Shown: piece by piece, positions 43,887 to 57,026 of the stretch
How positions within the stretch are numbered: position 1 is the first letter of the stretch
Layout: each line of letters begins with the position of its first letter
IMG/VR virus record: IMGVR_UViG_3300032164_000001
DNA: 64,000 nt
Strand: one strand, 5' to 3'
From: a virus
Made by a program: the position numbers and the translations under genes
Notes under the pieces: model-generated
Seen by the model: only the letters and a program-made list of their open reading frames with translations
The model's database searches: none
Told to the model about the DNA's origin: nothing

Positions 43887-43961
43887 TGCCCGCGGAGGGA
43901 GTCGAACCCCCACCCATCTAGCCTCCTTACGGCGTAGTGCTCACCAATGAGCTACGCGGGC
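43887..43961 (-). ncRNA. Aberrant tRNA-like gene (bulged anticodon stem, loop GTAAGGA)
   Basis: Acceptor GCCCGCG/CGCGGGC, TAGCTCA..GAGC D arm, GGTTCGACTCC T arm. Confidence 0.7.
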
Positions 43962-43965
43962 ACAG

Positions 43966-44041
43966 TGGGGCGGGGAGGAGTTGCACACTCCGACCTCTCT
44001 GCCAACGACGACAGAGCGCTCTACTGCTGAGCTACCGTCCC
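43966..44041 (-). ncRNA. Aberrant tRNA-like gene (extended anticodon stem, non-canonical T loop)
   Basis: GGGACGG/CCGCCCC, TAGCTCAGCAGTAGAGC, CTCTGTC/GGCAGAG, GGAG-TGTGCAA-CTCC. Confidence 0.6.
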
Positions 44042-44062
44042 CGAGCGCTCCCCGCCAGTATG

Positions 44063-44128
44063 TAAACGGGGAGTACGTTAGTGGGCCCATTCCCATAAAC
44101 GGGGAGCACGTTCGTGGGCCCATTTCCA
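44063..44128. repeat. Two tandem 33-bp repeats
   Basis: TAAACGGGGAG(T/C)ACGTT(A/C)GTGGGCCCATT(C/T)CCA x2. Confidence 0.9.
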
Positions 44129-44134
44129 TATTCT

Positions 44135-44602
44135 CTATCTGAGCAGCCTGAGACTGCTCAGGTACTTCTTCAACACGCTCCTTGGAGCTGGCTCGAGGCC
44201 AAGAGCCATGAGCTCACCCCTGTAGGGCTCATCTGATTCGCGGATTTGCTTGTGCCTGATGCCGGCAGCCTGAAGCCTGCTGGAGAGCTGCTCGAGCTCG
44301 GCACTGCCGTTGACAGCGAGAACCACGGCGTAGGTGCCCTCGGGCAAGAGCCCGGGAGAAGACTCGCCGGCGGCGTGCACGGCTTGCACCGCAGCCATAC
44401 CACGGGGCAAGTCATCACGGACTACGACGTAATGGGTTGTCGGATTGACTGGTTCGGTTCTAAGGGCGAGGTCGGCGTTAAGGGTGCATGCCTGACTTCC
44501 TGGTTGATGAGATACTCTAGGGTAAGCACGCTGAGTTGCTCTGTCAAGCGGTCGGCGAGCTCTTCTCTGAACGCAACAATAGCATTGGCGCAACCCCAAC
44601 AC
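44135..44602 (-). CDS. Peptidyl-tRNA hydrolase, PTH2 family (true start uncertain)
   Basis: YVVVRDDL..G..AVQAVHA..VVLAV..EL..IRE.D..ALGLEP..L..LRLL. Confidence 0.8.
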   Translation of the reverse strand: MLGLRQCYCCVQRRARRPLDRATQRAYPRVSHQPGSQACTLNADLALRTEPVNPTTHYVVVRDDLPRGMAAVQAVHAAGESSPGLLPEGTYAVVLAVNGSAELEQLSSRLQAAGIRHKQIRESDEPYRGELMALGLEPAPRSVLKKYLSSLRLLR

Positions 44603-44770
44603 AGGGGCTCGGTCAGGCCGGTTAGATGGCCGGTAGCGGGATGCGATGCTCCCCTACATCTGATGCACGGTACGGACATATCTGCTGCACTGATGGCATG
44701 CTTACCTTATCTATAGCAAGAGATGAAGAAGTGTCAAGTGTGAAGTGAATGATTTCAACGGGTGGATAGC

Positions 44771-44808
44771 GAAATGGCGGCTAACTCGAGGAAATTAGCC
44801 GCCATTTC
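44771..44808. terminator. 14-bp perfect hairpin, probable terminator
   Basis: GAAATGGCGGCTAA-10 nt-TTAGCCGCCATTTC. Confidence 0.7.
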
Positions 44809-44937
44809 TTCAATCGCAATTTACCCGTAAGGAGGACGGGTGTGCATCTACGCTAGTTCACGGCGAGATGCAAGACAGCCAAGAAGTCAGATTAGACCGT
44901 CTGGAGGACAAAATCAAGAACAATTCAGGGATGTGTC

Positions 44938-45759: not shown

Positions 45760-45870
45760 GAATTTTCTCCTCGGTCGTCTTCTGCCAGGCACCACGCCTG
45801 GACTTCATGCGACCACTTTTGCCGTCAACCTTAATCGCCCAGCGAGTCAGCTGTCAAGGCGATTTTTTCA

Positions 45871-45944
45871 TTGACAGGGTAACGGGAATGTACTAAAATA
45901 CGGGCGGCTTGGGTGGGGTAAGGTTATTGTATGTAGGGTTTTCT
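45871..45944 (+). promoter_or_regulatory. Repeat A copy 4
   Basis: TTGACA-17-TAAAAT-ACGGGCGGCTTGGGTGGGGTAAGGTTATTGTATGTAGGG. Confidence 0.85.
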
Positions 45945-46173: not shown

Positions 46174-46202
46174 TTGACAGCAGACTCACTCTTTGCTAAA
46201 GT
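46174..46202 (+). promoter_or_regulatory. sigma70-like promoter for the RNA cluster / TROVE-like gene
   Basis: TTGACA-17-TAAAGT. Confidence 0.7.
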
Positions 46203-46240
46203 GGTCACTGTTTGCTGGCTGTACCCGAAAAACTGAATAC

Positions 46241-46441
46241 GCCCCGATAGCCTAACGGTAAAGGCAATTGTAACTTTCCGCTTGTGCACTCGGGTCAGCA
46301 CATGAGCCGCATGAGCCCGTGCAGAGGCGTCGTATTTGCAACATGGCTGGGCACATGCTGTCGCCAGTTGCAGGCTGATCCAATGGCTACAAGCCTACAA
46401 GTCGAGACAATCGATTGGGGGTTCGAATCCCTCTCGGGGCG
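46241..46441 (+). ncRNA. tRNA-scaffold RNA 1: 135-nt structured insert replaces the anticodon loop (Y-RNA-like)
   Basis: Acceptor GCCCCGA/TCGGGGC, D GCCT/AGGC, AC stem ATTGT/ACAAT, T GGGGG-TTCGAAT-CCCTC; insert GCTTGTGC-ACTC-GGGTCAGC..GCTGATCC-AATG-GCTACAAGC. Confidence 0.8.
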
Positions 46442-46480
46442 CCTAAAGGTATGATATAATCGCAGTATTTCGTAAAATCT

Positions 46481-46616
46481 GGAGCGGTAGCCAAAATGGA
46501 AAAGGCACTGGTCAAAGGAACCAGCAAACAGAGCAGCTTCACTACTCGCATCGGATCTCCACCGACGCAATGGGTGCAAGCCTACAAGTATGAAGGTTCG
46601 AATCCTTCCCGCTCCA
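46481..46616 (+). ncRNA. tRNA-scaffold RNA 2: 67-nt variable region carrying the same stem motif
   Basis: Acceptor GGAGCGG/CCGCTCC, AC CTGGT-CAAAGGA-ACCAG, T GAAGG-TTCGAAT-CCTTC; GCTTCACT-ACTC-GC..GC-AATG-GGTGCAAGC. Confidence 0.8.
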
Positions 46617-46666: not shown

Positions 46667-46814
46667 AAGTCTTGAGCAACGTGTAATAGGGAGAAGCAGA
46701 CAAGTCAATAGCTCAACGGTAGAGCGCAAGACTAATAATCTTGATGTTATCGGTTCAAATCCGATGTGACGTAGCAAAAAACAGCTTTTCTCACTCGCGC
46801 GTTGCTCAAGACTT
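46667..46814 (+). ncRNA. RNA 3: long stem with AATA/ACTC internal loop enclosing a complete tRNA(AAT)-like cloverleaf (46702-46773)
   Basis: AAGTCTTGAGCAACGTGT-AATA-GGGAGAAGC .. GCTTTTCTC-ACTC-GCGCGTTGCTCAAGACTT; inner GCTC/GAGC, CAAGA-CTAATAA-TCTTG, ATCGG-TTCAAAT-CCGAT. Confidence 0.8.
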
Positions 46815-46880: not shown

Positions 46881-48761
46881 ATGCAATCCATCGAGGCGCT
46901 CGGTCCAGCCGAGCGCATCATCGAAGCAATCACCAAGTACACTGATCACTGTCAGCATAATCGTCCAGGAACCATCGTTCCTGACGCAAGACAGCTTGTT
47001 GGCGTGCGCTGGGAGCAGGCCATCTGGTGCAAGGAGGGAGAGGAGAAGGTCGTCTACCGTGTGACGAAGACCGGGAAGAAGCAGACAAAGGCACGCATCG
47101 GTGTACTGGAAGCTGACGGGATGGTGAAGGATGCTGGAGTGGAGGTTGCCCGATGGCGAGAGCCAGGGCTGTTCCCTGAGGTTGTGGTGCACCTGTACCG
47201 GCAAGTGGCAGAGGTCTGGAAGCTCGACAACGAGTTCGCTGCCAGGTGGGCCTCGTGGGCCTTCGAGCACGAAGAGAACAGGGACCTGAAGATCCTGCTG
47301 GCCGCGTTCCTGCTGGTGCAGAATCGCTTCGGGGAGAAAGTTCCAGACTCGACACTGGCTGACGAGGACTACCGAACTGTTGGTGAGGCCATGTGCCTGC
47401 TCCGTCGGAAGACGGGCACCTTCAATCCGAAGATGCTCCTGCGTATCGGCGAGGTGCTGGAGCTGCCAGGTGTGATTGCAGTCAACCGTGAGCTCGGATT
47501 TGGACAGACAGGACGAAGGGCGGTGACCGGCCGGTACCGTGGCACGGTGGAGAAGTGGCTCCGATACTACGAGAGCAACCCGGCCGTGCTCGAGATGTTG
47601 GTCAAGGCGGGCTTCCGTCGGTCCATCATGCAACTGTGTCGTGTCGTTGGCTACAAGCCAGAGACCGATGCATTCTTTGCCAAGCTGCGCTGGAAGCAGA
47701 TTCAGGCGAAGGATGGCCGGCGAGGCATGGCGATCGGAAGTACGCTGACGGCGGCGGAGTCGTGGAAGGAACTTGATGAAGCGGAGATCTGCAAGCGCAT
47801 CGTTTCTTCCGGTCTTGGCTGGAAGCGCATCGTGGGCATGCTGCCCTTCGGCGTTACTCCAGCCATCATGGCCGCCGCAATCGAGGGGGAGACCCTGAGC
47901 GACGCGGACCTCGTCATTCTCACACCAACACTGGAGGAGCTCGGCCTGCTCTCCGTACCGGAGATAACGGCACGCTGGAAGAGCGCAACGGAGCGAGCGG
48001 AGAACCAACGGGCGGCCCACATTGCACGTAACGTAAAGTCGGAGGCGGTGAAGGAACAGCTGCAGGTTGCAGTCGAGAAGGCTGTACAGAAGGCCGTCGA
48101 AGAGGTGACTCGTGACCTGCGAGTGTATGTTATTGTTGATAAATCCGGTTCGATGCGAGGAGCGATCGAGCTGGCGAAGGAGTACCTGGCGAAGATGGTG
48201 GTGGCTTTCCCCCTGGACCGGCTGCACGTCTGTGTCTTCAACACCGTCGGGGTGGAAGTACAGATTCGTGTTCCAACAGCGGCTGGAGTATCTCAGGCAT
48301 TCCGTGGGCACACGGCCGGCGGAGGTACGAGTTACGCTGCAGGGGCGTGGTGCCTCTTGCGGGACCACAAGCCAAGGGAAGGCGAGGATGCACTGTTGAT
48401 CTTCGTCGGAGACCAGGAGGACAACGGGGTCGAGCAGCTCGTGCAAGTGGTGAAGGGGTCAGGTGTAGCACCAGTGGCCTTCGGCATGCTACACGTGGCA
48501 AGTGCACCGGGAATGCAGCATGGAGGCTGGTACGGCTCGCCGGATGTTGTGGAACGTGCGGCGCAGGCCCTTGCCATCCCCTGTTTCAAGATAGCGGAGG
48601 AGATCTTCTCCGACGCGTACGCAGTGCCACGGACACTACGCAACCTGATTGCATCCACTCCGGTCACGCATCCGACAATGCGCAAGACGGCGCCAAAGCG
48701 CAAGTCGCTCATCGAACAAATCTTGTCGACGCCACTTCTACAGCGTCCAGTATGGGCGTAG
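46881..48761 (+). CDS. vWA-domain protein with helical N-terminal region, Ro60/TROVE-like
   Basis: MIDAS motifs IVDKSGSM, GGGTS, FVGDQED (clear). DNEFAARWASWAF..RD..LLAAFLL resembles the TROVE N-terminus, and size and architecture match Ro60 (inference). Confidence 0.7.
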   Translation: MQSIEALGPAERIIEAITKYTDHCQHNRPGTIVPDARQLVGVRWEQAIWCKEGEEKVVYRVTKTGKKQTKARIGVLEADGMVKDAGVEVARWREPGLFPEVVVHLYRQVAEVWKLDNEFAARWASWAFEHEENRDLKILLAAFLLVQNRFGEKVPDSTLADEDYRTVGEAMCLLRRKTGTFNPKMLLRIGEVLELPGVIAVNRELGFGQTGRRAVTGRYRGTVEKWLRYYESNPAVLEMLVKAGFRRSIMQLCRVVGYKPETDAFFAKLRWKQIQAKDGRRGMAIGSTLTAAESWKELDEAEICKRIVSSGLGWKRIVGMLPFGVTPAIMAAAIEGETLSDADLVILTPTLEELGLLSVPEITARWKSATERAENQRAAHIARNVKSEAVKEQLQVAVEKAVQKAVEEVTRDLRVYVIVDKSGSMRGAIELAKEYLAKMVVAFPLDRLHVCVFNTVGVEVQIRVPTAAGVSQAFRGHTAGGGTSYAAGAWCLLRDHKPREGEDALLIFVGDQEDNGVEQLVQVVKGSGVAPVAFGMLHVASAPGMQHGGWYGSPDVVERAAQALAIPCFKIAEEIFSDAYAVPRTLRNLIASTPVTHPTMRKTAPKRKSLIEQILSTPLLQRPVWA

Positions 48762-48764
48762 CAA

Positions 48765-49334
48765 ATGATTTACAGTCTTATCTTCACACATTGGAGCTAT
48801 CTCAAATATGTGCTATGGCACAAATACTACGTAGGAGTTGAGTGCTTCAAAGAAGGACTGTGGTGGCGGGGGTTGAAGCATGACTGGCACAAGTTTCTCC
48901 CTTCAGAGTTTCTGCCCTACTCGAACTTCTTCTACGGTCCCAATGGAAAGAACAACACAATCCGGGACAAGACTGGTTATTACAAACCTACCGATACAGG
49001 CAACAAAGCGTTTGATCGTGCTTGGTTCTGCCATCAGAAAAGAGCGGACCACCATTGGCAGTGGTGGGTCATGCCCGAAGATACCCAAGGTGTTAAGATT
49101 CTTCCCATGAGCGCACCAGCCATTGTGGAAATGATGAGTGATTGGTGCGGGGCTAGCAGAGCCCAGGGTCACGGTGGTTGGACTAGCCCCTCAGGAGTTT
49201 TTGCTTGGTATGCTACCAATGGACACAAGATGCAACTGCATCCGCAGACACGAGCTGTGATAGAAATGGCGCTGCGCACAAAAGGAGCTGATAGTTCCAA
49301 CACCAGATGGGGGTCGGAGAAGAAGCAGGATTGA
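48765..49334 (+). CDS. DUF5662-like HD-type protein
   Basis: HK.YV..HDWHKF.PSEF..AW..H..HHWQWW..PM..EM..DW. Confidence 0.75.
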   Translation: MIYSLIFTHWSYLKYVLWHKYYVGVECFKEGLWWRGLKHDWHKFLPSEFLPYSNFFYGPNGKNNTIRDKTGYYKPTDTGNKAFDRAWFCHQKRADHHWQWWVMPEDTQGVKILPMSAPAIVEMMSDWCGASRAQGHGGWTSPSGVFAWYATNGHKMQLHPQTRAVIEMALRTKGADSSNTRWGSEKKQD

Positions 49335-49567
49335 ATTGACCAATATGCCTACTACAGAAGCCTATCGACAGGGTTGGGAGAGGATTTTTGGTCCTGATCC
49401 CTGCCCATGGTGTGGCAACTGTGATGACGCTGATGATGAACCCTTGAGCCAGCACAAGTTGATGACACCAGCAGAGGAACTAACTTGTTCTCACTGTGGT
49501 CGTTGCATGAAAGAGAGTTGCGAACAACTTGTACAACGTCCTGTTTGGACTTAAGAAAGGCTAAATC

Positions 49568-49978
49568 ATGACACGCCCATTCGTACAGAGCATGGACATG
49601 AAGATCGAGGCCAGCAAGAAAGAATTGTTGGTCATCTTGAAGAACAATCGGGAGACTCACAAGAAGATTCTCTCTGAGGCCAGAGAAGGCTACATCAAGG
49701 CCGCAAGGGCTGCAATCGAGCACAAGCTGGACGAGCTCAGAACTGGCGAGTGTGTGCGTCTCACCTTTCACTTGAGCCCGCCACAGGACTACACTGCAAC
49801 CTACGACACGGTCATCAAGATGGCTGAGCTGCACCAGGCCGACACCATCACGCTGAGCGCCAATGAGGTTAGATGCCTCATGATGGACGAGTGGGATTGG
49901 ATGGATCAATTCCTGGTGATGAACAAAGCGTACTCGGGTCTCGCCAATGCGTATGCAGACGCCAAGGGCATCGTATGA
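49568..49978 (+). CDS. Conserved phage hypothetical protein
   Basis: L..NR..H..EA..GY..P..Y..YD..I.M..DEWDW. Confidence 0.65.
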   Translation: MTRPFVQSMDMKIEASKKELLVILKNNRETHKKILSEAREGYIKAARAAIEHKLDELRTGECVRLTFHLSPPQDYTATYDTVIKMAELHQADTITLSANEVRCLMMDEWDWMDQFLVMNKAYSGLANAYADAKGIV

Positions 49979-50355
49979 GCACTATGCATCAGAGCGTGCA
50001 ACATGCCTATCGGGTGATAAGACTGTTGACAAATACAGCGGTGCGCGAAGGGCGCATCCATCCGAAAGATGCCGATAGTTTCTTCGCCAGCGAATTGAAG
50101 GATTGGCTTGTTGGCTCACATCTCCCTATTCCAGGATGGCTGGGCGGCATTGGCGGACCAGTGGCAGAGAAGATCAAGACAGAAGGTATACGGGTTGCGG
50201 CGGGAGTGATCGGAAAGAGAGGACTGTCTGGTGGACAGATTGCCTTCATCGTGATCGGCGCGGTGGTACTCGTGTCAGCCATAGCCATAGCCTGGCATTG
50301 GTGGAAAAATGACCATGCAGGCATCGTATCCGCAACAGAGAGAGCAAGAGTGTGA
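49975..50355 (+). CDS. Membrane protein, hypothetical
   Basis: C-terminal TM; ATGA overlap. Confidence 0.5.
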   Translation: MSTMHQSVQHAYRVIRLLTNTAVREGRIHPKDADSFFASELKDWLVGSHLPIPGWLGGIGGPVAEKIKTEGIRVAAGVIGKRGLSGGQIAFIVIGAVVLVSAIAIAWHWWKNDHAGIVSATERARV

Positions 50356-50669
50356 ACAGGAAGAAGAAAGTAATCAAGCGGCTCAAGGTGATACGACCGA
50401 AAGCAGCAAGACGGACAAAGGTCGATGAGACATCTGTCGACGAGACGCCCATGGAAAAGGGGCATTTCTTGCGCTGGTTGGAACAAGAGCAAGACGCCGG
50501 GCGCATTGGCAGGTGCGGCTGTCCCGAGAAGTTCAAGGGCATCGATTGCCCCGCATGTCATGGAACTGGCATTGCCAGAATCCATGAGGCCTGGCCGTTG
50601 ATCGTCGAGTACGTGACGACAATGACCCGGCCCGTGACAATCTCGGACGTCATGTTGCAAATCATGTGA
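50352..50669 (+). CDS. Hypothetical Cys-containing protein
   Basis: CGC..CPACHGTG. Confidence 0.5.
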   Translation: MNRKKKVIKRLKVIRPKAARRTKVDETSVDETPMEKGHFLRWLEQEQDAGRIGRCGCPEKFKGIDCPACHGTGIARIHEAWPLIVEYVTTMTRPVTISDVMLQIM

Positions 50670-50690
50670 GTAAAGGCAACGGGAGCTGCA

Positions 50691-52361
50691 ATGACGATTC
50701 ACGAAAAGGTGCTACGCTTCGAACTATTGGCCTCGAGTTCTACTGAACTGAATTGGCTCGACGCCGCCTTCGTTCGCGCCGCCCTGGAAGTCAGAGCAGG
50801 TGCCTGCGACGATGATGAAGATCTGACTCTGCGACTGATTGAGACTCCGGTGGCTCAGCCCGTCTTCAAAGCCGTCGCTCATCCAGGTGTGACGCTGCGG
50901 GGCCTGATGCGAGATACAACACCCCACGACTTTGCGGCAATGATCTCCAACACGGGTTACCGCCTGTCCAAGGGATACATCGAGAGCATTCTTGCTGGAA
51001 GTAGTGACATCACCCCCTTGGCCGCCGAATGCATCGCGGAGGTCTTTGGCCCCTCCAAGGAATACTGGCTGCAACAGCAGGCGGACTACAATGCCTGGCG
51101 GCTGCACCACGACGCAGAATCCGTAGAAGCCCGAAGGTTCGATGCAGACATGGATCAGAACAAAGAAATCTGTGCGAATGCCGAACCAGCCAGTCCGAAC
51201 CAGCAGTGTGACGCCAACCAGCCGATCTGGAGAGTAGTAGCAGAGGCCTTGTGGGGCATCCTTGACGACATCAGCACGGCCGGCGACATCGCAAAGGGGG
51301 ACGATGCGATGTACCGCGCGATGGTCGAGGACCTGCAGGCCAAGAAGAGTAACTACCTGGTCTCCTACGACGGGCAGACGCTCGTTCGCACTGGCGGTGA
51401 ACCGCCCCCGAATCCGCCCGTGGAAATGAGTACGCCAAGCAAGCCGAATGTCCTTCATCCGGGTGAGACACTGAAGATGATACTGAGGGAACGCAACCTC
51501 TCCATCGACGACTTGATCTCTTTCATCCGCAAGCTCTATCCGACCTGCGTCGACTTCGGTCCTGATCGCATCGCTCTCCTTCTCCAGGGCGAGGCAGACA
51601 TCTCCATCGACATTGCCTCGATGTTGCAAGGGGCTCTCGGTCCTACGCCATCGGCCTCATTGTGGCTGCAATGGCAAGCAGACTATAGCGCCCGTGCAGA
51701 GGCAGTGTATCTACAACAAGGAACGCCCGTGCAGAGGCGTCCAGTCGCGTCTTTGACGGAACAGCTGCAGGGTCGAGTCGCATGGCTCGAGCGTCAGATG
51801 GACACATGGGCAGAGCGCATCCGCAACCTCGAGAAGACGCTGGACGCCTGGCAAGAGACATCCTACACAGATCCCTGCAAGGAGTGCCAGGATTGCGGTT
51901 GCCTCTTTCTCCCCAGTGGAAACGAGAGAGATGCCACATTCAAGTGCCGACGCTGTACATCTCGGGTTGATCCTGCCGCACCGCCCAAGTGGGCGATCAT
52001 GTCGGAGCGAGACGAGGCGCCTGACAAGGCACCTGAGCCGAATGCCCCTTCGCCGTGGGCACAAATCCCCGATGCTCTGCTGGAGACACTGGCCGAGTAC
52101 GCGCACACGGCCTGGTCGGGCTGGATGCAATACATACTCCAGCAGTGCCTCGGCGGTGAGGTGGCCGTGATAGATATGCGCCAGCCCAGTCCTGGCATCC
52201 CATTGTCGGGTGTGGCGGTCATTCCCTCCGAATTGGTTGAACGATGGAGCAGGCAGATGCACACGACCTACGCCGATCTGCCGGAGGAGGAGAAGAAGAG
52301 CGACAGACTGGAGGCGCGGCGGATACTCGTCGGTCTTCGCACAGCGAAGGCGGTACCGTGA
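50691..52361 (+). CDS. Mosaic protein with two HigA-like HTH domains, a Zn ribbon and a C-terminal RyR-like domain
   Basis: HPG..L..IT...A...FG.S..YWL..Q..Y twice; CQDC..CRRC; AEYAH..W..W..Q..T.YADLPEEEK.SDR. Confidence 0.7.
   Translation: MTIHEKVLRFELLASSSTELNWLDAAFVRAALEVRAGACDDDEDLTLRLIETPVAQPVFKAVAHPGVTLRGLMRDTTPHDFAAMISNTGYRLSKGYIESILAGSSDITPLAAECIAEVFGPSKEYWLQQQADYNAWRLHHDAESVEARRFDADMDQNKEICANAEPASPNQQCDANQPIWRVVAEALWGILDDISTAGDIAKGDDAMYRAMVEDLQAKKSNYLVSYDGQTLVRTGGEPPPNPPVEMSTPSKPNVLHPGETLKMILRERNLSIDDLISFIRKLYPTCVDFGPDRIALLLQGEADISIDIASMLQGALGPTPSASLWLQWQADYSARAEAVYLQQGTPVQRRPVASLTEQLQGRVAWLERQMDTWAERIRNLEKTLDAWQETSYTDPCKECQDCGCLFLPSGNERDATFKCRRCTSRVDPAAPPKWAIMSERDEAPDKAPEPNAPSPWAQIPDALLETLAEYAHTAWSGWMQYILQQCLGGEVAVIDMRQPSPGIPLSGVAVIPSELVERWSRQMHTTYADLPEEEKKSDRLEARRILVGLRTAKAVP
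51690..51740 (+). repeat. Dispersed repeat B, one full and one partial copy inside CDS
   Basis: GCCCGTGCAGAGGCAGTGTATCTACAAC and GCCCGTGCAGAGGCGT. Confidence 0.85.
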
Positions 52362-53047
52362 GCAACAAGTGCGACGAAGACATCTACGAGAACGGCCGAA
52401 CGGTGCTGGTTATCGGCGATGAGTTCTCCGTGAACACGATCGAGGCCTTCGTGCAGAAAATCGCACGTCGGTCGGGTCAGAAGGTCGACTGGCACTTCAT
52501 CGCCGGCCGGGCCGCCCTCAGAGCCAAGGCCAACACGCAGGGCCTGCACAAGGTGGATGAGGCCATCTACGGCTGTCCCGACGAGGTGGCCGCCTGGTGG
52601 AAAGCAGAGCTCGAGAAGAGTGGACGCGTCGCATACAAGGACTGCATCATGCGTTGCACGGGTGGGCTCTTGCTAGAACTCATGACCACCAAGAAGCCCA
52701 GTGAGGCGACCGGCACGGTCGACTACTGCAGTCCGCTCTATGGTTACCATCCGGGTGGTGACAACCACTGGGCACGCGACGAACTGGGACTGGAAGCGTT
52801 CAACATGGCGAATAAGGTTGTCGTGGGCGCTTTGCGCCAGCACGTCCCAGTCGCCATCAGCTGGGTCTGCCCTGGATGCCAGACGCGAAACAAGTGCGAC
52901 TACTCCGATGAGCACTACTTCGCAGACCCAAAGATCAATGCAGTCTTCGCGATCAACTTATGCTGTCCAGAGTGCAGCAAGGAAGTGGAGATCTTCGTGA
53001 AGCTACACTTGACACTCAGCCTCCATGCGAGATTGGAGAATGGCTAG
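52358..53047 (+). CDS. Hypothetical protein with C-terminal Zn ribbon
   Basis: SGQKVDWHFIAGRA; CPGC..CPEC. Confidence 0.6.
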   Translation: MSNKCDEDIYENGRTVLVIGDEFSVNTIEAFVQKIARRSGQKVDWHFIAGRAALRAKANTQGLHKVDEAIYGCPDEVAAWWKAELEKSGRVAYKDCIMRCTGGLLLELMTTKKPSEATGTVDYCSPLYGYHPGGDNHWARDELGLEAFNMANKVVVGALRQHVPVAISWVCPGCQTRNKCDYSDEHYFADPKINAVFAINLCCPECSKEVEIFVKLHLTLSLHARLENG

Positions 53048-53995
53048 ATGGTCTGGGAGAACCTGCTTCAGCACGCGGCGTCAGGCTACTTCGCATTCCC
53101 CTGGCTCGGCGGGCGAAAGATACACGGCAATGGGCGCACCTGGCGTGTCGTCAACAAGTTGCCTCCGGAGTTCGGATGGTGTCTGTTCGAGCTCAAGGGG
53201 GGTCGAACGGCGAAGTACTGCGAACAGGCAGAGCCATTGGCGAACTGGGAAAACGAGCATCACACAACCCGTGGGTACATTGTCGGGGATAGGTTCATCC
53301 CGGAGAGGGCTCGAGTAGATCCCGATCCAGAGAGACTGGCAGAACAGACAATCGCAGTGTATCTGGTGGAGCGAGGACTGGATCGCTTCGCACCGTGCTT
53401 GGTGGCTTTCGAAGAGGAGAATAGAGCAATCTTCGTTCGTCAGCTATTCGACTCCGTAGTCGAGGAAAAGGCGCGTGAGGCCTTCATCGATCGAAGGGTT
53501 GACATTGCCTCCATCCGCGATGTTCCACCTGCTCTGGACTTGGCTTTTCGCTTCGCGAGTCGACAGAGGGAACTCGTGGAGCGACGTAGATTAGAGCTCG
53601 AGAAGCAACGACTGGAAGAAGAACGTCGAGAGGCTGCACTGAAGAGCATCGGCACGGGGCTCGGACGACGGCAGCTGGCGACGACAGATTTTGCTGCAGC
53701 GGCTCGAGCTGCTCTGGCCGTGTCCGGGGCAGAGTTTCTGGATGCGCGCGAGGCTCACGGGCGAAATGAGATGATCGTGCAGTACCGTTTCATGAATCGT
53801 CGCTTCGAGTGCGTTGTAGATCGACTGACACTGAGATTGACGGACAGCGGTGTATGCCTACAGGACCATCGTGGAGTGAAAGGGGACACCAGGTTCACAC
53901 TGGAGTCAATCCCAGGAGTGATCTCCGAGGCGATTCGAGAGAACAAACTGCACATCTACCGCCATGTCGACGACGAGGAAGAAGATTACTGGTAG
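53048..53995 (+). CDS. Putative E2-like (Ubl-conjugating) protein
   Basis: C-terminal DSGVCL resembles the E2 catalytic G.[IV]CL segment followed by a helix (TLESIPGVISEAI); adjacent to JAB/Ubl/E1. Confidence 0.45.
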   Translation: MVWENLLQHAASGYFAFPWLGGRKIHGNGRTWRVVNKLPPEFGWCLFELKGGRTAKYCEQAEPLANWENEHHTTRGYIVGDRFIPERARVDPDPERLAEQTIAVYLVERGLDRFAPCLVAFEEENRAIFVRQLFDSVVEEKAREAFIDRRVDIASIRDVPPALDLAFRFASRQRELVERRRLELEKQRLEEERREAALKSIGTGLGRRQLATTDFAAAARAALAVSGAEFLDAREAHGRNEMIVQYRFMNRRFECVVDRLTLRLTDSGVCLQDHRGVKGDTRFTLESIPGVISEAIRENKLHIYRHVDDEEEDYW

Positions 53996-54082
53996 AAATC
54001 AAGAGTGCGCACAACAACGAGATTGATTGCTGATGTCACGAGAACACAAAGTGTCGGGCTGTGACGATTGTCCAGCTCTTTG

Positions 54083-54110
54083 GCCCGTGCAGAGGCATCG
54101 TATTTGCAAC
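54083..54110 (+). repeat. Dispersed repeat B
   Basis: GCCCGTGCAGAGGCATCGTATTTGCAAC upstream of the JAB gene. Confidence 0.85.
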
Positions 54111-54124
54111 TGGAAGGCAAGAAG

Positions 54125-54526
54125 ATGGTAGAAGTGGCTCTGGTGTTCAACAGGCATGGGGTCGGTCTACAATGGCACAGGCCGAATGGGAAATGCTCGC
54201 ATGGTGGCATTGGAGATGATCGCGGTCTGTGGGAATTCTTGTGGGCAAACCGGAAAGAAGTTGGTGGTGTGGCGCACACACATCCATGGGATGGACCGGC
54301 TGGACCATCAGGAACGGATGTAACGACATTCTCGGCGATAGAGAGAGGCTTAGGGGTCAAACTGGTGTGGCCAATCGTGACATTGACGGAGATCGGCTAC
54401 TTCGAATGGGTTGGTCCGGACAAGCACGATTATGGCGATATGCGACTGCGCAGGTTCCGTTTGGATCCAGCGGACATCGCAGAACTGCGAGAGCTTTCAT
54501 TGAAAGGAGATAACGGAAATGGCTGA
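54125..54526 (+). CDS. JAB/MPN+ (JAMM) metallopeptidase
   Basis: N-terminal Glu (MVEVA) plus HTHP..PSGTD. Confidence 0.85.
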   Translation: MVEVALVFNRHGVGLQWHRPNGKCSHGGIGDDRGLWEFLWANRKEVGGVAHTHPWDGPAGPSGTDVTTFSAIERGLGVKLVWPIVTLTEIGYFEWVGPDKHDYGDMRLRRFRLDPADIAELRELSLKGDNGNG

Positions 54527-54827
54527 TATGGTTGTTTACGATGTGCCAATGGCCAGACTCAATATCACATGGTCCGGGCAGAACGGAGACAATCCGGACT
54601 TGGTCCCGTGGGATTCATCGGATGCAGACATCCGGCGCATCGCAACGGAGGCCGTGTGCACTGGGTACGTCGCTGGCATCCCGGCTGATCCGAATGTGGA
54701 CTTCACAGACTTCGTCGTCGACCGCTTCCCGGCGACGGACGAACTGCCGTATAGATGCTTCGTCAGATCGAAAACCCCCTTTGGAGGTTTTACGCGCTTG
54801 ACTAGAATCGTTGCGCTAGTGCGCTAG
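54519..54827 (+). CDS. Ubiquitin-like (beta-grasp) protein precursor with internal GG and 12-aa tail
   Basis: ARLNITW..SDADIRRIATEAV..CFVRSKTPFGG-FTRLTRIVALVR; overlaps the JAB gene. Confidence 0.6.
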   Translation: MADMVVYDVPMARLNITWSGQNGDNPDLVPWDSSDADIRRIATEAVCTGYVAGIPADPNVDFTDFVVDRFPATDELPYRCFVRSKTPFGGFTRLTRIVALVR

Positions 54828-54843
54828 AAAAGGAGTTTTTGCC

Positions 54844-55632
54844 ATGCAAGACGTACAAGACGTACTCACACAACTATTGAGAAACAACACACAGCTTTCG
54901 AATGCCAAGAAGGCACACCTGATTGAGACGATGGCCGTGTATCGGATCGTGCGAGAAGTAATCGGGGAATCCACAGCCAGTGCCGTGCTGACACTGACGG
55001 CAGCGATAGCAAATCTTCATGCCACATTACAGCTCGGACTGACTTCCCCGTCTCACCTGTCCCAGAACGGCGCCCCACCTTGGGCGCCTACACCAATGCC
55101 CACAGCGCAGTCGCCTGTACAGGCTCCTGCACCAATGCCCGTGGCACTTGCCGCCACGGTGCCAGAGAGCAAGAAGCCGAAGAAAAAAGTAGCCCCCCTC
55201 GGCAAAGGCTATACGCTGATGGTAACCAAGACTGAACTTCGCACATCCGGTCAAGAGAATAAGTACATGAATACAACCTTTGTGATAACGCGCGCTCCTG
55301 ATCAGATAGACGAACCGGGACAGACGCCGGAGAAGTTCGAAGAATTCAGACAATCCGTCGGGATGGCAATCGCTGAACAGCGACTCATGCTGGAGGGGAA
55401 CGGGACGCCCTTGACAGTGGAATTCTTGATCGCATGCGGCATTGACATACCCCCTGACCTCATCACATTGGACATAAGCAAGCCCATCTACAGGTTGGTG
55501 ACGGCAGAAGTCAAGTTCTATGACAAATTCAACAATGAAGAACACGAAAAACTTCGGAACTACCGACCTGTTGACTGCTCACAGGAGCGCTTGATCGAAC
55601 AAGTTCTCAGTTCTGGCCCGGGGTCAATCTGA
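54844..55632 (+). CDS. Hypothetical protein with Pro/Ala linker
   Basis: 262 aa, AGGAG SD, overlaps E1 start. Confidence 0.65.
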   Translation: MQDVQDVLTQLLRNNTQLSNAKKAHLIETMAVYRIVREVIGESTASAVLTLTAAIANLHATLQLGLTSPSHLSQNGAPPWAPTPMPTAQSPVQAPAPMPVALAATVPESKKPKKKVAPLGKGYTLMVTKTELRTSGQENKYMNTTFVITRAPDQIDEPGQTPEKFEEFRQSVGMAIAEQRLMLEGNGTPLTVEFLIACGIDIPPDLITLDISKPIYRLVTAEVKFYDKFNNEEHEKLRNYRPVDCSQERLIEQVLSSGPGSI

Positions 55633-56228
55633 TGCAAAAGGAGCGGCCCTGGCCAAAGGTTGCCGTTGTCGGAATAGGCGCCCTGGGTTCGCATGTCGTC
55701 TTGCTTGCTCGGAATTGGAAGGCGAAGCTGCGTGTCATCGACGGCGACAAGGTCGAGCAGAAGAATGTGCTGGCACAGATGCATTCAGAGCTAGGGAAGG
55801 GGAGGAACAAGGCTGCGGCACTTAAGGTGTTGATGCAGGGCATGTTCCGCCTGGAGATAGAAGCCTTCCCCGTGAAGGTCAACGAATGGAACTTGAAGGG
55901 GCTGCTCGGTGAGATGGCGCTGATCATCGACTGCACCGACAACGTGGCGGCTCGAAACTGCATCAAGTCGTTTGCACTGAAGGATGAGATTCCTTGCCTG
56001 CATGTGTGCTTATCGGCTGATGGAATGCTGGCCCGAGTGGTGTGGGCTCAACAGAACTTCAAGGCTGACAAAGAGAGTGGAGACGGAGCGACGTGTGAGG
56101 ACGGGGCGAATGTGTGGTTCCACGCGATGGCGGCTGCACTCGTCGTGCGACTGGCCCAGCAGTTCCTGCTCGATGGTCGAATGGAAAGCTGGATGCTTGC
56201 GCCAGCAGCTCTCCTCAGGATAGCATAG
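55632..56228 (+). CDS. ThiF/MoeB/E1-family adenylyltransferase
   Basis: VVGIGALGS, IDGDKVEQKN..Q, NKA, IIDCTDN..AR; candidate Cys in ATCE. Confidence 0.9.
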   Translation: MQKERPWPKVAVVGIGALGSHVVLLARNWKAKLRVIDGDKVEQKNVLAQMHSELGKGRNKAAALKVLMQGMFRLEIEAFPVKVNEWNLKGLLGEMALIIDCTDNVAARNCIKSFALKDEIPCLHVCLSADGMLARVVWAQQNFKADKESGDGATCEDGANVWFHAMAAALVVRLAQQFLLDGRMESWMLAPAALLRIA

Positions 56229-56503
56229 AGGAAGACCGATGTTCTTCTACCTGCACTCCGATCATGCCTGTTTAACTCCAATCAAGGAGAGACAGGCATG
56301 CAATACGGGAGCACGACGAAGTTCAAAGTCTGGACGGACATCGATTTCTCGCTCAGTGAACTGAAGGGTCTTCGACGAAGGGGCGTGCTGCAACGACGCT
56401 TCGCCCGCGCGAGAAGATTCTACAAGAACCAGCTCGCCCGCCAGCGCCGTAGCTGGAACAGGAACATCCTTCTGCAAGAGGTAGCAGAAAATAATAATTT
56501 ATC

Positions 56504-56578
56504 TTGACAGATCAGCCTAATTCGATCTAAAATACGGGCGGCTTGGGTGGGGTAAGGTTATTGTATGTAGGGTTTTCT
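56504..56578 (+). promoter_or_regulatory. Repeat A copy 5
   Basis: TTGACA-18-TAAAAT; leader identical to copy 4. Confidence 0.85.
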
Positions 56579-56711
56579 ACGTACTTCCGAGGAGTTATGC
56601 CAACAGTATGCCACGGGTCGGTGTCTGGCCGATCAGAGCGAAGAATCGGTAATCGGGCCAGAGGTCTCCAACGAATGGCTCAGTGAGCCAAGTGAATGGT
56701 TCGGCGAACCA

Positions 56712-57026
56712 TCACCCGTTTGAGCATGCTGGCTGGGGTAGGCCGGCTATCTTGCAAGCGAGGGACAATCCCGCGGGGAACAGCTTGTAGAGCGTCGTCA
56801 GCGTGAGCTTGCACCCGGTGCAGACCTCGCGAACGTGTGGCGAGCGGTGCTTGCTGACATAGAAGCACCTGAGAAACTCGATGACCTCGATGTGTGGCAC
56901 GTCGAGCTCGAGGCCGAGCTTCCGGGCATAGGAGACGGCAATGGGCGGCTCCCAGTCACTTGCATGGACGAAGTAGCCGTTGCCATCCAGTTGGATGATA
57001 CGGCCAAGGGTGTTCAACGTCTTCAC
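56712..57026 (-). CDS. TusE/DsrC/DsvC-family sulfur relay protein
   Basis: LDGNGY..DW..IA..A..L..H..VI.FLR.FY..P..LY.LFP.G..ACKIAGLP.P.C. Confidence 0.9.
   Translation of the reverse strand: MKTLNTLGRIIQLDGNGYFVHASDWEPPIAVSYARKLGLELDVPHIEVIEFLRCFYVSKHRSPHVREVCTGCKLTLTTLYKLFPAGLSLACKIAGLPQPACSNG

What the first reader, a model, noticed from the sequence alone, without database searches (positions are those of the whole stretch)
43887..57026. Possible single translation-rescue module: Ro60-like RNP + tRNA mimics + PTH2 + Ubl machinery
Seen: five tRNA-like RNAs, PTH2, the vWA/TROVE-like gene and the Ubl set lie within 13 kb; the last two are on the same plus-strand run and are linked by repeat B. 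Inference: a counter-defence system against host tRNA/ribosome-damaging effectors, with PTH2 recycling peptidyl-tRNA, RNAs acting as decoys or tethers, and the vWA protein recruiting targets for Ubl tagging. Intervening genes may be later insertions into an ancestral operon.
Basis: inference. Interest (0 to 1): 0.78.

Follow-up and report, generated by a model that had tools for sequence, protein, structure and literature searches.

The report
Ro60-like RNA-protein plus ubiquitin-like cassette
A phage gene for a distant look-alike of the Ro60 RNA-binding protein, the tRNA-shaped small RNAs beside it and a four-gene ubiquitin-like tagging set form one cassette that recurs in dozens of huge phages and in some bacterial chromosomes, a pairing I found in no paper I could search; the nearby PTH2 gene is not part of it.

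Summary
The core of the "single module" idea holds; the outer parts do not.

**Conserved cassette.**
- The 626-aa vWA protein (46881-48761) is followed, in the same order and on the same strand, by orf315, a JAMM peptidase, a small protein ending in Gly (Ubl) and a ThiF-type E1.
- This holds in 59 of 66 informative IMG/VR huge-phage loci. The reverse search with orf315 found the vWA gene in 67 of 68 loci.
- The compact cassette also sits in bacterial chromosomal contigs (Myxococcota, Verrucomicrobiota, a Leptonemataceae chromosome, a Spirillospora isolate).
- The 4.3 kb between vWA and orf315 in this window has no counterpart elsewhere, so it is an insertion.

**Linked RNA.** A structured RNA module attached to tRNA-like bodies flanks the cassette. 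It gave 113 covariance-model hits, none between vWA and E1, with strong covariation. It occurs in hairpin and permuted, Y-RNA-like forms.

**Ro60 likeness.** Fold searches rank Ro60/TROVE-vWA proteins first, but with low TM-scores and no Pfam TROVE hit.

**Not part of the cassette.** PTH2 and the two minus-strand tRNAs are not syntenic with it.

**Open points.** The function is inferred: a Ro60/Y-RNA-like particle coupled to Ubl conjugation, probably in tRNA surveillance. An E2 was not shown. Other first-stage notes on this same genome cover these RNAs and the Ubl set; nothing was noted on other DNA.

The parts
45871..45944 (+). Sigma-70-like promoter (TTGACA, 17 nt, TAAAAT) plus a conserved leader. 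This is one copy of a dispersed 52-nt exact repeat and marks the start of the plus-strand transcription unit (inferred).
   Evidence: Sequence read. Repeat copies at 42960, 45894 and 56528, with a diverged copy at 1825.
46174..46202 (+). Second promoter-like site (TTGACA, 17 nt, TAAAGT) directly upstream of the three RNAs.
   Evidence: Sequence read. Not tested further.
46241..46443 (+). RNA1: a tRNA-like RNA with acceptor, D and T arms and no anticodon loop. The shared module (P1, ACUC/AAUG loop, P2, then CUACAAG) carries a ~75-nt insertion in P2 that includes a copy of the dispersed 28-nt element.
   Evidence: Sequence and fold (z -2.2). 28-nt repeat at 46315. Not detected by ARAGORN, Rfam or model R1.
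46481..46616 (+). RNA2: a tRNA-like RNA with an odd anticodon loop (CAAAGGA). Its variable arm is the shared module, lying directly 5' of the T arm.
   Evidence: Rfam tRNA 43.5 bits. Model R1, built without window sequences, hits 46530-46590 at 23 bits, E 0.011. Fold.
46667..46814 (+). RNA3: a Y-RNA-like form. An 18-bp terminal stem made by the 5' and 3' flanks is followed by a 4x4 internal loop (AAUA opposite ACUC) and a 9-bp stem. These enclose a tRNA-like core (46702-46773, called Ile-AAU). The shared module is circularly permuted here.
   Evidence: Inverted repeat I1. Fold -58.2 kcal/mol against -33.1 +/- 3.6 for shuffles, z -7.06. tRNA 56.3 bits. The same architecture with different stem sequences occurs in L002 and in bacterial loci L175, L196 and L182.
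46881..48761 (+). Ro60-like protein, 626 aa: an N-terminal beta domain (about 30-93), a helical TROVE-like region (about 99-410) and a C-terminal vWA domain with a MIDAS motif.
   Evidence: Family of more than 2000 proteins at 55-65% identity. AlphaFold model pLDDT 80. Top Foldseek hits are Ro60/TROVE in PDB and in BFVD. vWA Z about 15. TROVE clusters lead the Atlas feature search at 0.86. No Pfam TROVE hit.
48765..53047 (+). Lineage-specific insertion: DUF5662 (48765-49334), orf136, orf160, a 556-aa HigA-like HTH protein (50691-52361) and orf267.
   Evidence: Pfam, PHROG and NCBIfam hits. No homologue in any of 75 related loci. In other loci orf315 follows the vWA gene directly.
53048..53995 (+). 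orf315: a conserved partner of unknown family. It has tandem OB-like barrels, a long helix and a small alpha/beta domain with invariant C255, D266, G268 and C270. It is a candidate E2-like or adaptor protein (inferred).
   Evidence: Present in 66 of 66 informative loci. Alignment A2. Model pLDDT 88. No fold match at E<=0.001 or Z>=5. No Pfam or PADLOC hit. 562 cluster representatives, all about 300 aa.
54068..54526 (+). JAMM/JAB metallopeptidase. The likely true start is the Met at 54125.
   Evidence: Invariant E22, H70-x-H72, S81 and D84 across 22 homologues. Most homologues start at the position of window residue 20.
54519..54827 (+). Ubiquitin-like candidate, 102 aa. Its conserved C-terminus ...RPKTPFG is followed here by a 13-residue tail.
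   Evidence: Alignment A3. Present in 63 of 66 loci. Fold not tested; no PDB or Pfam match.
54844..55632 (+). orf262: a lineage-specific gene between the Ubl and the E1.
   Evidence: No family hit. 0 of 75 loci.
55632..56228 (+). Minimal E1 (ThiF/MoeB-type adenylation domain, 198 aa) with an invariant GxGxxG motif and Thr154-Cys155.
   Evidence: PF00899 71 bits. NCBIfam and PADLOC E1 hits. PDB profile search: MoeB 3e-17, then Uba4 and ThiF. Alignment A10.
56504..56578 (+). Next copy of the promoter-plus-leader repeat. It marks the end of the unit that holds the RNAs and the cassette (inferred).
43884..44602 (-). PTH2 gene (44135-44602), a 33-bp tandem repeat (44063-44128) and two aberrant tRNA-like genes (43966-44041, 43884-43962). 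They are in the finding's range, but tested here as NOT conserved members of the cassette.
   Evidence: PF01981 37.9 bits. tRNA 43.1 and 33.7 bits; folds. PTH2 near the cassette in 2 of 75 loci and elsewhere in the genome in related phages. No R1 hit here.

Best explanation
**What is shown.** The region holds one conserved, self-contained genetic system with six kinds of part:
- one to several small RNAs, in which a tRNA-like body is joined to a shared two-stem module with a conserved CUCG internal loop and a YUACAAG tail;
- a Ro60-like protein (TROVE-like helical region plus a vWA/MIDAS domain);
- orf315 (OB-like barrels plus a small domain with invariant cysteines);
- a JAMM peptidase;
- a small Ubl-like protein that ends in Gly plus a removable tail;
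- a minimal E1.

**What is inferred from the Ro60/Rsr-Y RNA and E1-Ubl-JAMM precedents.**
- The Ro60-like protein binds the module of the RNAs. The tRNA-like body then acts as a handle or mimic for tRNA-binding factors, or as a sensor of tRNA damage.
- JAMM trims the Ubl tail and E1 adenylates the exposed Gly.
- The Ubl is then attached, possibly through a cysteine of orf315, to a protein held in the particle. The target could be the Ro60-like protein itself or a tethered client.
- In huge phages the cassette sits inside the phage's tRNA gene island, so its likely business is surveillance or protection of the tRNA and translation pool during infection.

**What is not part of it.** PTH2, the two minus-strand tRNAs and the genes between vWA and orf315.
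For: **Synteny.**
- Of 66 viral loci with at least 9 kb downstream, orf315 is present in 66, JAB in 64, Ubl in 63 and E1 in 62.
- All four are present in 59 loci, always in the same order and on the same strand, spanning 4.0-11.8 kb.
- An independent search with the orf315 profile found 68 loci, of which 67 have the vWA gene, 68 JAB, 67 Ubl and 63 E1. The median vWA-to-orf315 gap is 84 nt.
- The whole compact cassette also occurs at 35-39% identity in large bacterial contigs. These have 0-1 tRNA genes and no other conserved neighbour.

**RNA linkage.**
- Model R1, seeded without window sequences, gives 113 hits in 1.39 Mb, 111 of them on the cassette strand.
- The hits fall in 46 of 67 loci and none lies between vWA and E1. 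Arrays start 96-210 nt after the E1 stop or 79-900 nt before the vWA start.
- Hits also occur beside cassettes in contigs with no tRNA genes.
- Covariation is strong: 89% of cells are paired against 59% in shuffles, and the score is 0.84 against 0.27 (0 of 500 shuffles reach it). Slid controls give 0.08-0.13.
- The permuted, stem-flanked form is found in the window (z -7.06) and in bacterial loci with different stem sequences.
- One array member shows YrlA topology, with a weak Rfam YrlA hit.

**Ro60 likeness.**
- The top Foldseek hits are TROVE/Ro60: 9kop at 5e-7, then 1yvp, the phage phiLo Ro60 9l5y and Rsr 2nvo.
- In BFVD the top hits include 'Ro-like RNA binding protein' and TROVE/DUF2828 proteins. 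The Atlas feature search is also led by TROVE clusters.
- Established precedent: YrlA RNAs lie within 4 kb of Rsr on the same strand, mimic tRNA, and have a YUAY motif before the T arm (PMC4201824).

**Enzymes look active.** The JAMM motif and the E1 motifs are invariant.

**Context consistent with RNA damage.** One bacterial cassette sits directly downstream of rtcR, with rtcB and rtcA divergent. This is the position that rsr-yrlBA occupies in Salmonella (PMC7790460).
Against: - There is no sequence-level link to TROVE. No Pfam or NCBIfam hit was found, and no PDB hit even with a profile.
- The structural matches have low TM-scores (0.28-0.38) and high rmsd. The Atlas score of 0.86 is only a lead.
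- The N-terminal region was not folded and searched alone.
- The RNA motif differs from the known Ro-binding motif GNCGAAN0-1G. Rfam's YrlA model scores far below its threshold (23.9 against 69 bits).
- No binding, expression or processing data exist.
- orf315 was not recognised as an E2 or as any known fold.
- The Ubl fold was not tested.
- The Rtc neighbourhood occurs in 1 of about 30 bacterial loci.
- 21 of 67 viral loci had no R1 hit, though several of those are truncated.
- The E1 is closest to the sulfur-carrier E1s MoeB, ThiF and Uba4, so conjugation to protein is not established.
Confidence: 0.6

Rival explanations
1. Sulfur relay for RNA thiolation. The Ubl is a ThiS/MoaD/TtuB/Urm1-type sulfur carrier: JAMM matures it and the E1 thiocarboxylates it. 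orf315 (RNA-binding OB folds plus a cysteine pair) and the Ro60-like protein then deliver sulfur to the tRNA-like RNAs or to the phage tRNAs.
For: - The E1 profile is closest to MoeB (3e-17), Uba4 and ThiF; NCBIfam's best hits are ThiF and MoeB.
- JAMM plus a tailed Ubl plus an E1, without a recognised E2, is the layout of known sulfur-carrier sets. That comparison rests on established knowledge of CysO/Mec+, QbsCDE, TtuB/TtuC and SAMP/UbaA.
- The cassette is tied to tRNA-like RNAs and tRNA islands.
- orf315 has OB-like barrels and invariant cysteines.
Against: - The cassette holds no PP-loop ATPase (TtuA/Ncs6/MnmA type), no rhodanese and no cysteine desulfurase.
- No such gene recurs in the neighbourhoods.
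- A Ro60-like vWA protein has no known role in thiolation.
- Closeness to MoeB/ThiF is usual for any minimal E1.
Confidence: 0.15
2. PTH2, the two minus-strand tRNA-like RNAs, the Ro60-like particle and the Ubl set all work together as one phage counter-defence and translation-rescue module against host effectors that damage tRNA or ribosomes.
For: - All the parts lie within 13 kb.
- PTH2 is common in related huge phages: 4 of 5 records.
- The cassette lies in tRNA islands, sometimes with tmRNA or RtcB.
- The theme fits the Rtc context of one bacterial homologue.
Against: - PTH2 is within 10 kb of the cassette in only 2 of 75 loci, and 30-45 kb away in two related genomes.
- It is on the opposite strand, outside the unit bracketed by the promoter repeats.
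- The minus-strand tRNAs lack the shared module.
- Bacterial chromosomes carry the cassette without PTH2, so the core system is neither phage-specific nor PTH2-dependent.
Confidence: 0.1
3. Separate modules that merely sit together because huge phages pile tRNA-related and accessory genes into tRNA islands. On this view there is no functional link between the vWA protein, the RNAs and the Ubl set.
For: In most phage loci the cassette is surrounded by 30-45 tRNA genes, so tRNA-like sequences nearby are expected. Gaps inside the cassette vary, giving spans of 4-12 kb.
Against: - Order and strand are the same in 59 of 59 complete phage loci.
- The association holds in the reverse search, 67 of 68.
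- The cassette keeps its form in bacterial chromosomes and in phage-like contigs with no tRNA array, and the module RNA or a single tRNA-like gene is still beside it.
- Module hits never fall inside the cassette and almost all are on its strand.
Confidence: 0.04

Closest known systems
Bacterial Ro60 (Rsr) with YrlA/YrlB Y RNAs, e.g. the Salmonella rsr-yrlBA-rtcBA operon and the Deinococcus Rsr-Yrn1-PNPase particle (PMC4201824, PMC7790460)
   Same: - A protein with a helical region plus a C-terminal vWA/MIDAS domain, whose best fold matches are Ro60/Rsr.
- Small RNAs encoded next to it on the same strand that combine a stem with a tRNA-like domain, including a permuted, closed-acceptor form.
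- A YUAY motif before the T arm.
- One bacterial cassette lies next to rtcR, rtcB and rtcA.
   Different: - No Pfam TROVE match, and an extra N-terminal beta domain.
- The conserved RNA motif is CUCG in an internal loop, not GNCGAAN0-1G.
- Many of the RNAs are unpermuted tRNAs with the module placed as a giant variable arm or in place of the anticodon loop, and they occur in arrays of up to six.
- The fixed partners are E1, Ubl, JAMM and orf315, rather than RtcB/RtcA or PNPase.
Phage-encoded Ro60 homologues (mycobacteriophage Ro with YrlA; Thermus phage phiLo Ro60, PDB 9l5y, PMC12135203; the ROT/TROVE proteins noted in a few jumbo phages, PMC7824862)
   Same: Encoded by phages, Ro60-like in architecture, and paired with a tRNA-like partner RNA.
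   Different: Those proteins are recognisable TROVE proteins and are not reported with a Ubl-conjugation set. This family is annotated only as a hypothetical or VWA protein, for example in Virus Rctr197k.
Bacterial ubiquitin-like conjugation systems: Bil and Bub operons, and CBASS Cap2/Cap3 (10.1101/2023.09.26.559546, PMC11601596, PMC10097602)
   Same: An E1 adenylation domain with a conserved cysteine, a JAMM peptidase, and a small protein ending in Gly with a cleavable tail, all in one operon. PADLOC's Cap2-type E1-E2 models hit the E1 part.
   Different: No recognisable E2 (UBC) domain. The Ubl has no detectable sequence relative. The set is tied to an RNA-binding-type protein and structured RNAs. 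It occurs mostly in phages rather than in known defence islands.
E2-less Ubl systems with a tRNA connection: archaeal SAMP/UbaA/HvJAMM1 and Thermus TtuB/TtuC (PMC2948915; established knowledge)
   Same: A minimal E1 plus a Ubl plus a JAMM without a dedicated E2, and a link to tRNA biology.
   Different: No thiolation enzyme in the cassette. Ro60-like and orf315 partners are unknown in those systems.

Membership tests
Ro60/Rsr (TROVE-vWA RNA-binding proteins) | TROVE domain detectable by sequence (Pfam PF05731) | tested here: not met
   No TROVE hit in Pfam or NCBIfam. No PDB hit by phmmer or by a 32-sequence profile.
Ro60/Rsr (TROVE-vWA RNA-binding proteins) | Ring of helical repeats followed by a vWA domain (fold) | tested here: inconclusive
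   The top Foldseek hits in PDB and BFVD are Ro60/TROVE proteins aligned over 500-570 columns, at E 5e-7 to 1e-4, but with TM-scores of 0.28-0.38 and rmsd of 11-14 Å. TROVE clusters lead the Atlas feature search at 0.86. The N-terminal region was not folded alone.
Ro60/Rsr (TROVE-vWA RNA-binding proteins) | C-terminal vWA domain with a MIDAS motif | tested here: met
   D420-x-S422-x-S424 is invariant. Z 14-15, rmsd about 3.3 Å over about 160 residues to solved vWA domains.
Ro60/Rsr (TROVE-vWA RNA-binding proteins) | Binds an adjacent Y RNA | not testable with these tools
YrlA-type Y RNA (Rfam RF02553) | Reaches the family's covariance-model threshold | tested here: not met
   No YrlA hit in the window at E<=5. 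The best related hit is 23.9 bits against a gathering score of 69, in L049.
YrlA-type Y RNA (Rfam RF02553) | tRNA-like domain joined to a stem, encoded within 4 kb of the protein on the same strand | tested here: met
   RNA3 has an 18-bp terminal stem enclosing a 56-bit tRNA-like core, 67 nt upstream of the gene. 111 of 113 module hits are on the cassette strand, mostly within 2 kb.
YrlA-type Y RNA (Rfam RF02553) | GNCGAAN0-1G motif in the 5' strand (proposed Ro-binding site) | tested here: not met
   The conserved motif is (A/U/C)CUCG in the internal loop, plus YUACA(A/C)G. The comparison motif is taken from PMC4201824.
Ubl conjugation systems (Bil/Bub/Cap2-Cap3 type) | E1 adenylation domain with nucleotide-binding motif and conserved cysteine | tested here: met
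   PF00899 71 bits. Invariant GxGxxG, R27, D37, K60, D100 and T154-C155.
Ubl conjugation systems (Bil/Bub/Cap2-Cap3 type) | Ubl with beta-grasp fold and C-terminal Gly | tested here: inconclusive
   The C-terminal Gly, and tails that would need trimming, are conserved. The fold was not predicted, and there is no sequence match.
Ubl conjugation systems (Bil/Bub/Cap2-Cap3 type) | E2 (UBC-fold) protein with catalytic cysteine | tested here: inconclusive
   orf315 has invariant C255 and C270. Its model gives no UBC match: the best hits are a double OB fold at Z 4.8 and an RWD-type chain at Z 3.8. No Pfam or PADLOC hit, even for the C-terminal part alone.
Ubl conjugation systems (Bil/Bub/Cap2-Cap3 type) | JAMM/JAB peptidase with E...HxH...S..D motif | tested here: met
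   E22, H70, H72, S81 and D84 are invariant in 22 homologues. The Pfam Prok-JAB hit is weak at 18 bits.
Sulfur-carrier Ubl systems for tRNA thiolation (TtuB/TtuC/TtuA, Urm1/Uba4/Ncs6) | PP-loop thiolase, rhodanese or desulfurase partner | tested here: not met
   None among the cassette genes. None among recurrent neighbours.
PTH2 peptidyl-tRNA hydrolase (PF01981) | Matches the family model over its cut-off | tested here: met
   37.9 bits against a cut-off of 23, covering profile positions 4-115 of 115. This shows membership of PTH2 only, not of the cassette.

The most novel reading that the evidence does not exclude
The cassette could be an RNA-directed ubiquitin-like tagging machine. In one version, the tRNA-mimic RNAs held by the Ro60-like ring act as bait for tRNA-binding proteins, such as anticodon nucleases, modification enzymes or ribosomal sites. 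Those proteins are then covalently marked with the Ubl. In a more radical version, the minimal E1 transfers the adenylated Ubl onto the 3' end of the tRNA-like RNA, in an aminoacylation-like reaction that would make a protein-RNA conjugate. Either version would be a kind of system not described in bacteria or phages.
Probability: 0.12. Interest if true: 0.95.

Novelty: new variant of a known kind. Interest (0 to 1): 0.8.

Why it matters
- **A new pairing.** Ro60-Y RNA particles and bacterial ubiquitin-like conjugation are each recent, active topics, but I found no paper that reports them together.
- **Scale.** The vWA protein family has more than 2000 members, and orf315 has 562 cluster representatives at 50% identity. 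The system is found across huge phages and in several bacterial phyla, with a fixed gene order and its own class of structured RNA.
- **A function for huge-phage tRNA islands.** If the inferred coupling holds, those islands would gain a function beyond codon supply.
- **RNA diversity.** Y-RNA-like molecules would extend to three topologies of one module.
- **A tractable entry point.** The cassette is in a cultured Spirillospora isolate and sits next to rtcR-rtcBA in one genome. Both offer a way to ask what Ro60-type proteins do in RNA-damage responses.
- **Annotation.** Three protein families now annotated only as hypothetical would gain a context.

Tried and rejected
- The look-up of encoding contigs.
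- Complex prediction for vWA626 with orf315.
- The look-up of sequencing runs. As a result no expression data or RNA ends were obtained and read laying was not used.
- No whole genome is held for the window.

**Searches that led nowhere.**
- Megablast of the region against GenBank phages: no match.
- tblastn found a single record, Virus Rctr197k, annotated as hypothetical.
- phmmer and profile searches of vWA626 against PDB found only weak vWA hits.
- VIA-align on the whole 626-aa model listed only vWA domains in its top 50, so it says nothing about the N-terminal part.
- orf315 gave no usable result in Pfam on 27 members, Pfam on the C-terminal domain alone, PADLOC, the Atlas, Foldseek PDB or VIA wide. 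The representative search found only same-length relatives with no informative fusions.
- The Ubl and JAB profiles against PDB gave nothing useful.

**Ideas considered and dropped.**
- The inserts in RNA1 and RNA2 as group I or other introns, or as known ribozymes: they are too short, and there is no Rfam hit.
- "Repeat B" as a specific link: both candidate repeats are dispersed.
- An Rtc association as a general feature: only 1 bacterial locus has the full rtcR/rtcB/rtcA set, and 4 viral loci have RtcB.
- A crude script for stem-flanked tRNA-like RNAs gave 28 candidates in 25 viral loci and 9 in 7 genome loci. Its false-positive rate is unknown, so I do not rely on it.
- A T-loop density test in bacterial loci was only modestly positive: 0.81 per kb near the cassette against 0.30 per kb elsewhere.

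**Literature.** Five full-text searches found no paper that joins TROVE/Ro60-like proteins with E1, Ubl and JAB. The library lacks most subscription-journal papers, so prior description cannot be excluded.

Full report
**What is in the window.**

The window is phage DNA. It encodes a portal protein (phrog_12, 1.3e-34), a head-decoration protein and a tail-fibre-like protein. Its 626-aa protein is recorded on contigs of up to 180 kb. No whole genome is held.

In the finding's range the plus strand carries these genes:
- the 626-aa vWA protein (46881-48761);
- DUF5662, two small ORFs, a 556-aa HigA-like HTH protein and orf267;
- orf315 (53048-53995);
- a JAB gene, a 102-aa ORF and orf262;
- a 198-aa ThiF-type E1 (55632-56228).

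The minus strand carries PTH2 (44135-44602; PF01981, 37.9 bits) and, downstream of it, two tRNA-like genes.

**The five tRNA-like RNAs.**

- ARAGORN and Rfam at gathering threshold see two tRNAs.
- Rfam in sensitive mode adds 46481-46616 (43.5 bits, a 136-nt "tRNA") and 43966-44041 (33.7 bits).
- The fifth, 46241-46443, has acceptor, D and T arms around a ~130-nt insert.

Three of the five are not ordinary tRNAs, and the two on the minus strand are aberrant: one has a bulged anticodon stem, and the other has a 10-nt loop and an odd T loop.

**Is the co-location more than chance?**

I fetched 75 IMG/VR loci that encode a relative of the 626-aa protein, from contigs of up to 619 kb. I then searched them with every window protein.
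- orf315, JAB, the 102-aa ORF and the E1 are found downstream in 69, 66, 65 and 63 loci.
- Of the 66 loci with at least 9 kb downstream, 59 have all four, always in the window's order and on the same strand. The cassette spans 4.0-11.8 kb.
- None of DUF5662, orf136, orf160, the HigA-like gene, orf267 or orf262 occurs in any locus.
- PTH2 occurs in 2 loci.

The reverse search with an orf315 profile returned 68 loci. Of these, 67 have the vWA gene upstream, 68 have JAB, 67 the Ubl and 63 the E1. The gap from the vWA stop to the orf315 start has a median of 84 nt and is often 7-25 nt.

**The cassette is not confined to phages.**

A scan of one genome per prokaryotic species gave 59 loci.
- Those at 50-59% identity look like the same phages binned into MAGs, mostly Myxococcota.
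- A second group at 35-39% identity lies in large contigs: 6.9, 5.9, 3.3, 1.9 and 1.3 Mb. It includes a Leptonemataceae chromosome and a cultured Spirillospora isolate.
- This second group carries the whole compact five-gene cassette with 0-1 tRNA genes nearby.

Clustering all flanking ORFs found no further conserved neighbour. One locus (L181) has rtcA and rtcB divergent from rtcR, with the cassette directly downstream of rtcR. That is the place rsr-yrlBA holds in Salmonella (PMC7790460). It is a single case, however.

**The RNAs.**

Reading the regions upstream of the vWA gene in the closest loci showed the same element as in the window. Its order is:
- a 5-8 bp stem (P1);
- an internal loop whose 5' side reads (A/U/C)CUCG;
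- a hairpin (P2);
- the 3' strand of P1;
- the motif YUACA(A/C)G, followed by a T arm or by a whole tRNA.

A covariance model was built from 21 copies, none from the window. All 11 of its pairs show compensatory changes. Searched over the window and 67 loci (1.39 Mb), it gave these results:
- 113 hits, 111 of them on the cassette strand, in 46 of the 67 loci;
- no hit between vWA and E1;
- 73 hits in arrays that begin 96-210 nt after the E1 stop;
- 36 hits upstream of vWA, mostly 79-900 nt away.

On the alignment of the hits, 89% of cells pair against 59% after shuffling. The covariation score is 0.84 against 0.27 (0 of 500 shuffles reach it), and slid controls give 0.08-0.13. That alignment was fitted to the model, so these figures lean towards the structure.

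The model also hits beside cassettes in MAG contigs that have no tRNA genes at all. The RNA is therefore a partner of the cassette, not a by-product of tRNA islands.

The module appears in three topologies in the window.
- **RNA1.** The module stands where the anticodon loop should be, and its P2 has been expanded by an insertion.
- **RNA2.** The module is a giant variable arm (R1 hit at 23 bits).
- **RNA3.** The module is circularly permuted. The flanks of the "tRNA-Ile" form an 18-bp terminal stem, a 4x4 loop (AAUA opposite ACUC) and a 9-bp stem (-58.2 kcal/mol, z -7.06).

An earlier first-stage note (e1-5863091) suggested the permuted reading, and I checked it.

The same stem-flanked architecture occurs elsewhere with different but still complementary stem sequences. 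It is seen in L002 and, in bacteria, immediately upstream of the vWA gene (L175, L196, L178, L204) or between vWA and orf315 (L182).

One array member in L049 has a T arm, an acceptor stem closed by a UUCG loop and a D arm. That is the YrlA topology. It gets a weak Rfam YrlA score of 23.9 bits against a threshold of 69.

The known YrlA family lies within 4 kb of Rsr on the same strand, mimics tRNA and has a YUAY motif before the T arm (PMC4201824). The present RNAs share those traits but not the GNCGAA motif.

**The 626-aa protein.**

- It belongs to a large, well-conserved family: 2063 hits, and 55-65% identity among the best 120. One member carries an intein.
- The MIDAS motif is invariant.
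- The AlphaFold model (pLDDT 80) has a small beta domain, a long helical region and a vWA domain.
- In PDB, Foldseek ranks a TROVE-domain crystal structure first, followed by Xenopus and human Ro60, the Thermus phage phiLo Ro60 and Deinococcus Rsr (E 5e-7 to 1e-4).
- In BFVD the top matches include "Ro-like RNA binding protein" of a Gordonia phage and TROVE/DUF2828 proteins.
- A language-model feature search of residues 1-410 is also led by TROVE clusters, at 0.86, which counts only as a lead.

Against this, TM-scores are only 0.28-0.38, and no sequence method reaches TROVE. I therefore call the protein Ro60-like in architecture and context, not a demonstrated family member.

**The Ubl set.**

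- **JAB.** The full JAMM motif is invariant. The gene probably starts at 54125.
- **E1.** It keeps the nucleotide-binding motif and an invariant Thr-Cys. Its nearest solved relatives are MoeB, Uba4 and ThiF.
- **The 102-aa ORF.** It ends in an invariant ...RPKTPFG followed by 0-13 variable residues. That is the signature of a Ubl needing C-terminal trimming. Its fold was not tested.
- **orf315.** The model is confident (pLDDT 88): two OB-like barrels, a long helix and a small alpha/beta domain with invariant C255, D266, G268 and C270. It matched nothing convincingly. The best hits were the Mpa double-OB inter-domain at Z 4.8 and an RWD-type chain at Z 3.8. There was no Pfam or PADLOC hit. An E2 role is therefore only a guess.

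**What does not belong.**

- PTH2 is a genuine PTH2 and is common in related phages (4 of 5 records). In two of those records it lies 30-45 kb from the cassette.
- In the window it lies on the other strand, outside the unit bracketed by two copies of a promoter-plus-leader repeat at 45894 and 56528.
- That repeat, and the 28-nt element shared by RNA1 and the region before the JAB gene, both occur elsewhere in the window. Neither is a specific link.

**Most likely mechanism.**

Shown:
- a fixed set of five protein genes plus a structured, tRNA-attached RNA;
- intact catalytic motifs in the JAMM peptidase and the E1.

Inferred from the precedents:
- the Ro60-like protein binds the RNA module;
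- the tRNA-like body serves as a mimic or tether;
- JAMM matures the Ubl and the E1 activates it;
- the Ubl is attached to a protein in the particle, perhaps through orf315.

The setting suggests surveillance of the tRNA and translation pool. The cassette lies in tRNA islands with tmRNA in some phages, and one bacterial cassette lies beside rtcR-rtcBA. A sulfur-relay role is the main rival. No experiment or expression data could be obtained here.

**Novelty.**

Ro60-Y RNA particles, including phage ones, and bacterial Ubl conjugation are both known. I found no paper that joins them, and the one GenBank phage that carries the gene labels it hypothetical. I rate the finding a new variant of known kinds, with a small chance of something categorically new.

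Noticed in passing
window 33977-34868, 46315-46342, 50319-50336, 51690-51745, 54083-54110: A dispersed ~28-nt element (GCCCGTGCAGAGGCRTCGTATTTGCAAC), always on the plus strand. One copy lies inside RNA1's insert, and one lies in the gap just before the JAMM gene's likely start. It may be a phage-specific promoter or an RNA-processing signal.
   Followed up: partly
window 1825-1854, 42960-43011, 45893-45944, 56527-56578: Repeated sigma-70-like promoter plus a ~50-nt identical leader. Three copies are exact and appear to mark the starts of plus-strand transcription units.
   Followed up: partly
window 57150-57226: Three tandem copies of a 24-nt period (29-nt unit) inside the ORF at 56835-57311.
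   Followed up: no
window 44063-44128: Two tandem 33-bp units between PTH2 and the minus-strand tRNA-like genes.
   Followed up: no
L001-L075 (e.g. L001 1885-18730; L002, L003, L007, L068): In most related huge phages the cassette is embedded in arrays of 30-45 tRNA genes on the same strand. Several of these arrays also include a tmRNA gene. This window's phage has lost almost all of that array.
   Followed up: partly
protein P0077: One homologue of the 626-aa protein is 1043 aa long and carries an intein with a homing endonuclease (PF14528, PF14890).
   Followed up: no
L149-L172: Phage-like contigs with the cassette at 50-59% identity are binned mostly into Myxococcota MAGs (Polyangia, Kofleriaceae, Sandaracinaceae). 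The chromosomal copies are also mostly in Myxococcota. This hints at the host range of this phage group.
   Followed up: no
L181 3597-7594: In one 6.9-Mb deltaproteobacterial contig the cassette lies directly downstream of rtcR, with rtcB and rtcA divergent. That is the position of rsr-yrlBA in Salmonella. An Hsp70-like gene and a topoisomerase-RecQ fusion follow the cassette.
   Followed up: partly
window 43090-43698: A 202-aa ORF with a TSCPD domain (PF12637, 4.3e-9), which is usually part of ribonucleotide reductase. Here it stands alone downstream of a promoter-leader copy.
   Followed up: no
window 46481-46616 and 43884-43962: RNA2 and the minus-strand 'tRNA-Leu' share an AAG-G-A anticodon-loop core, and neither has the long variable arm of bacterial tRNA-Leu. 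RNA1's 3' half also closely resembles the minus-strand tRNA's 3' half (inverted repeat I2, 82% over 28 nt).
   Followed up: no
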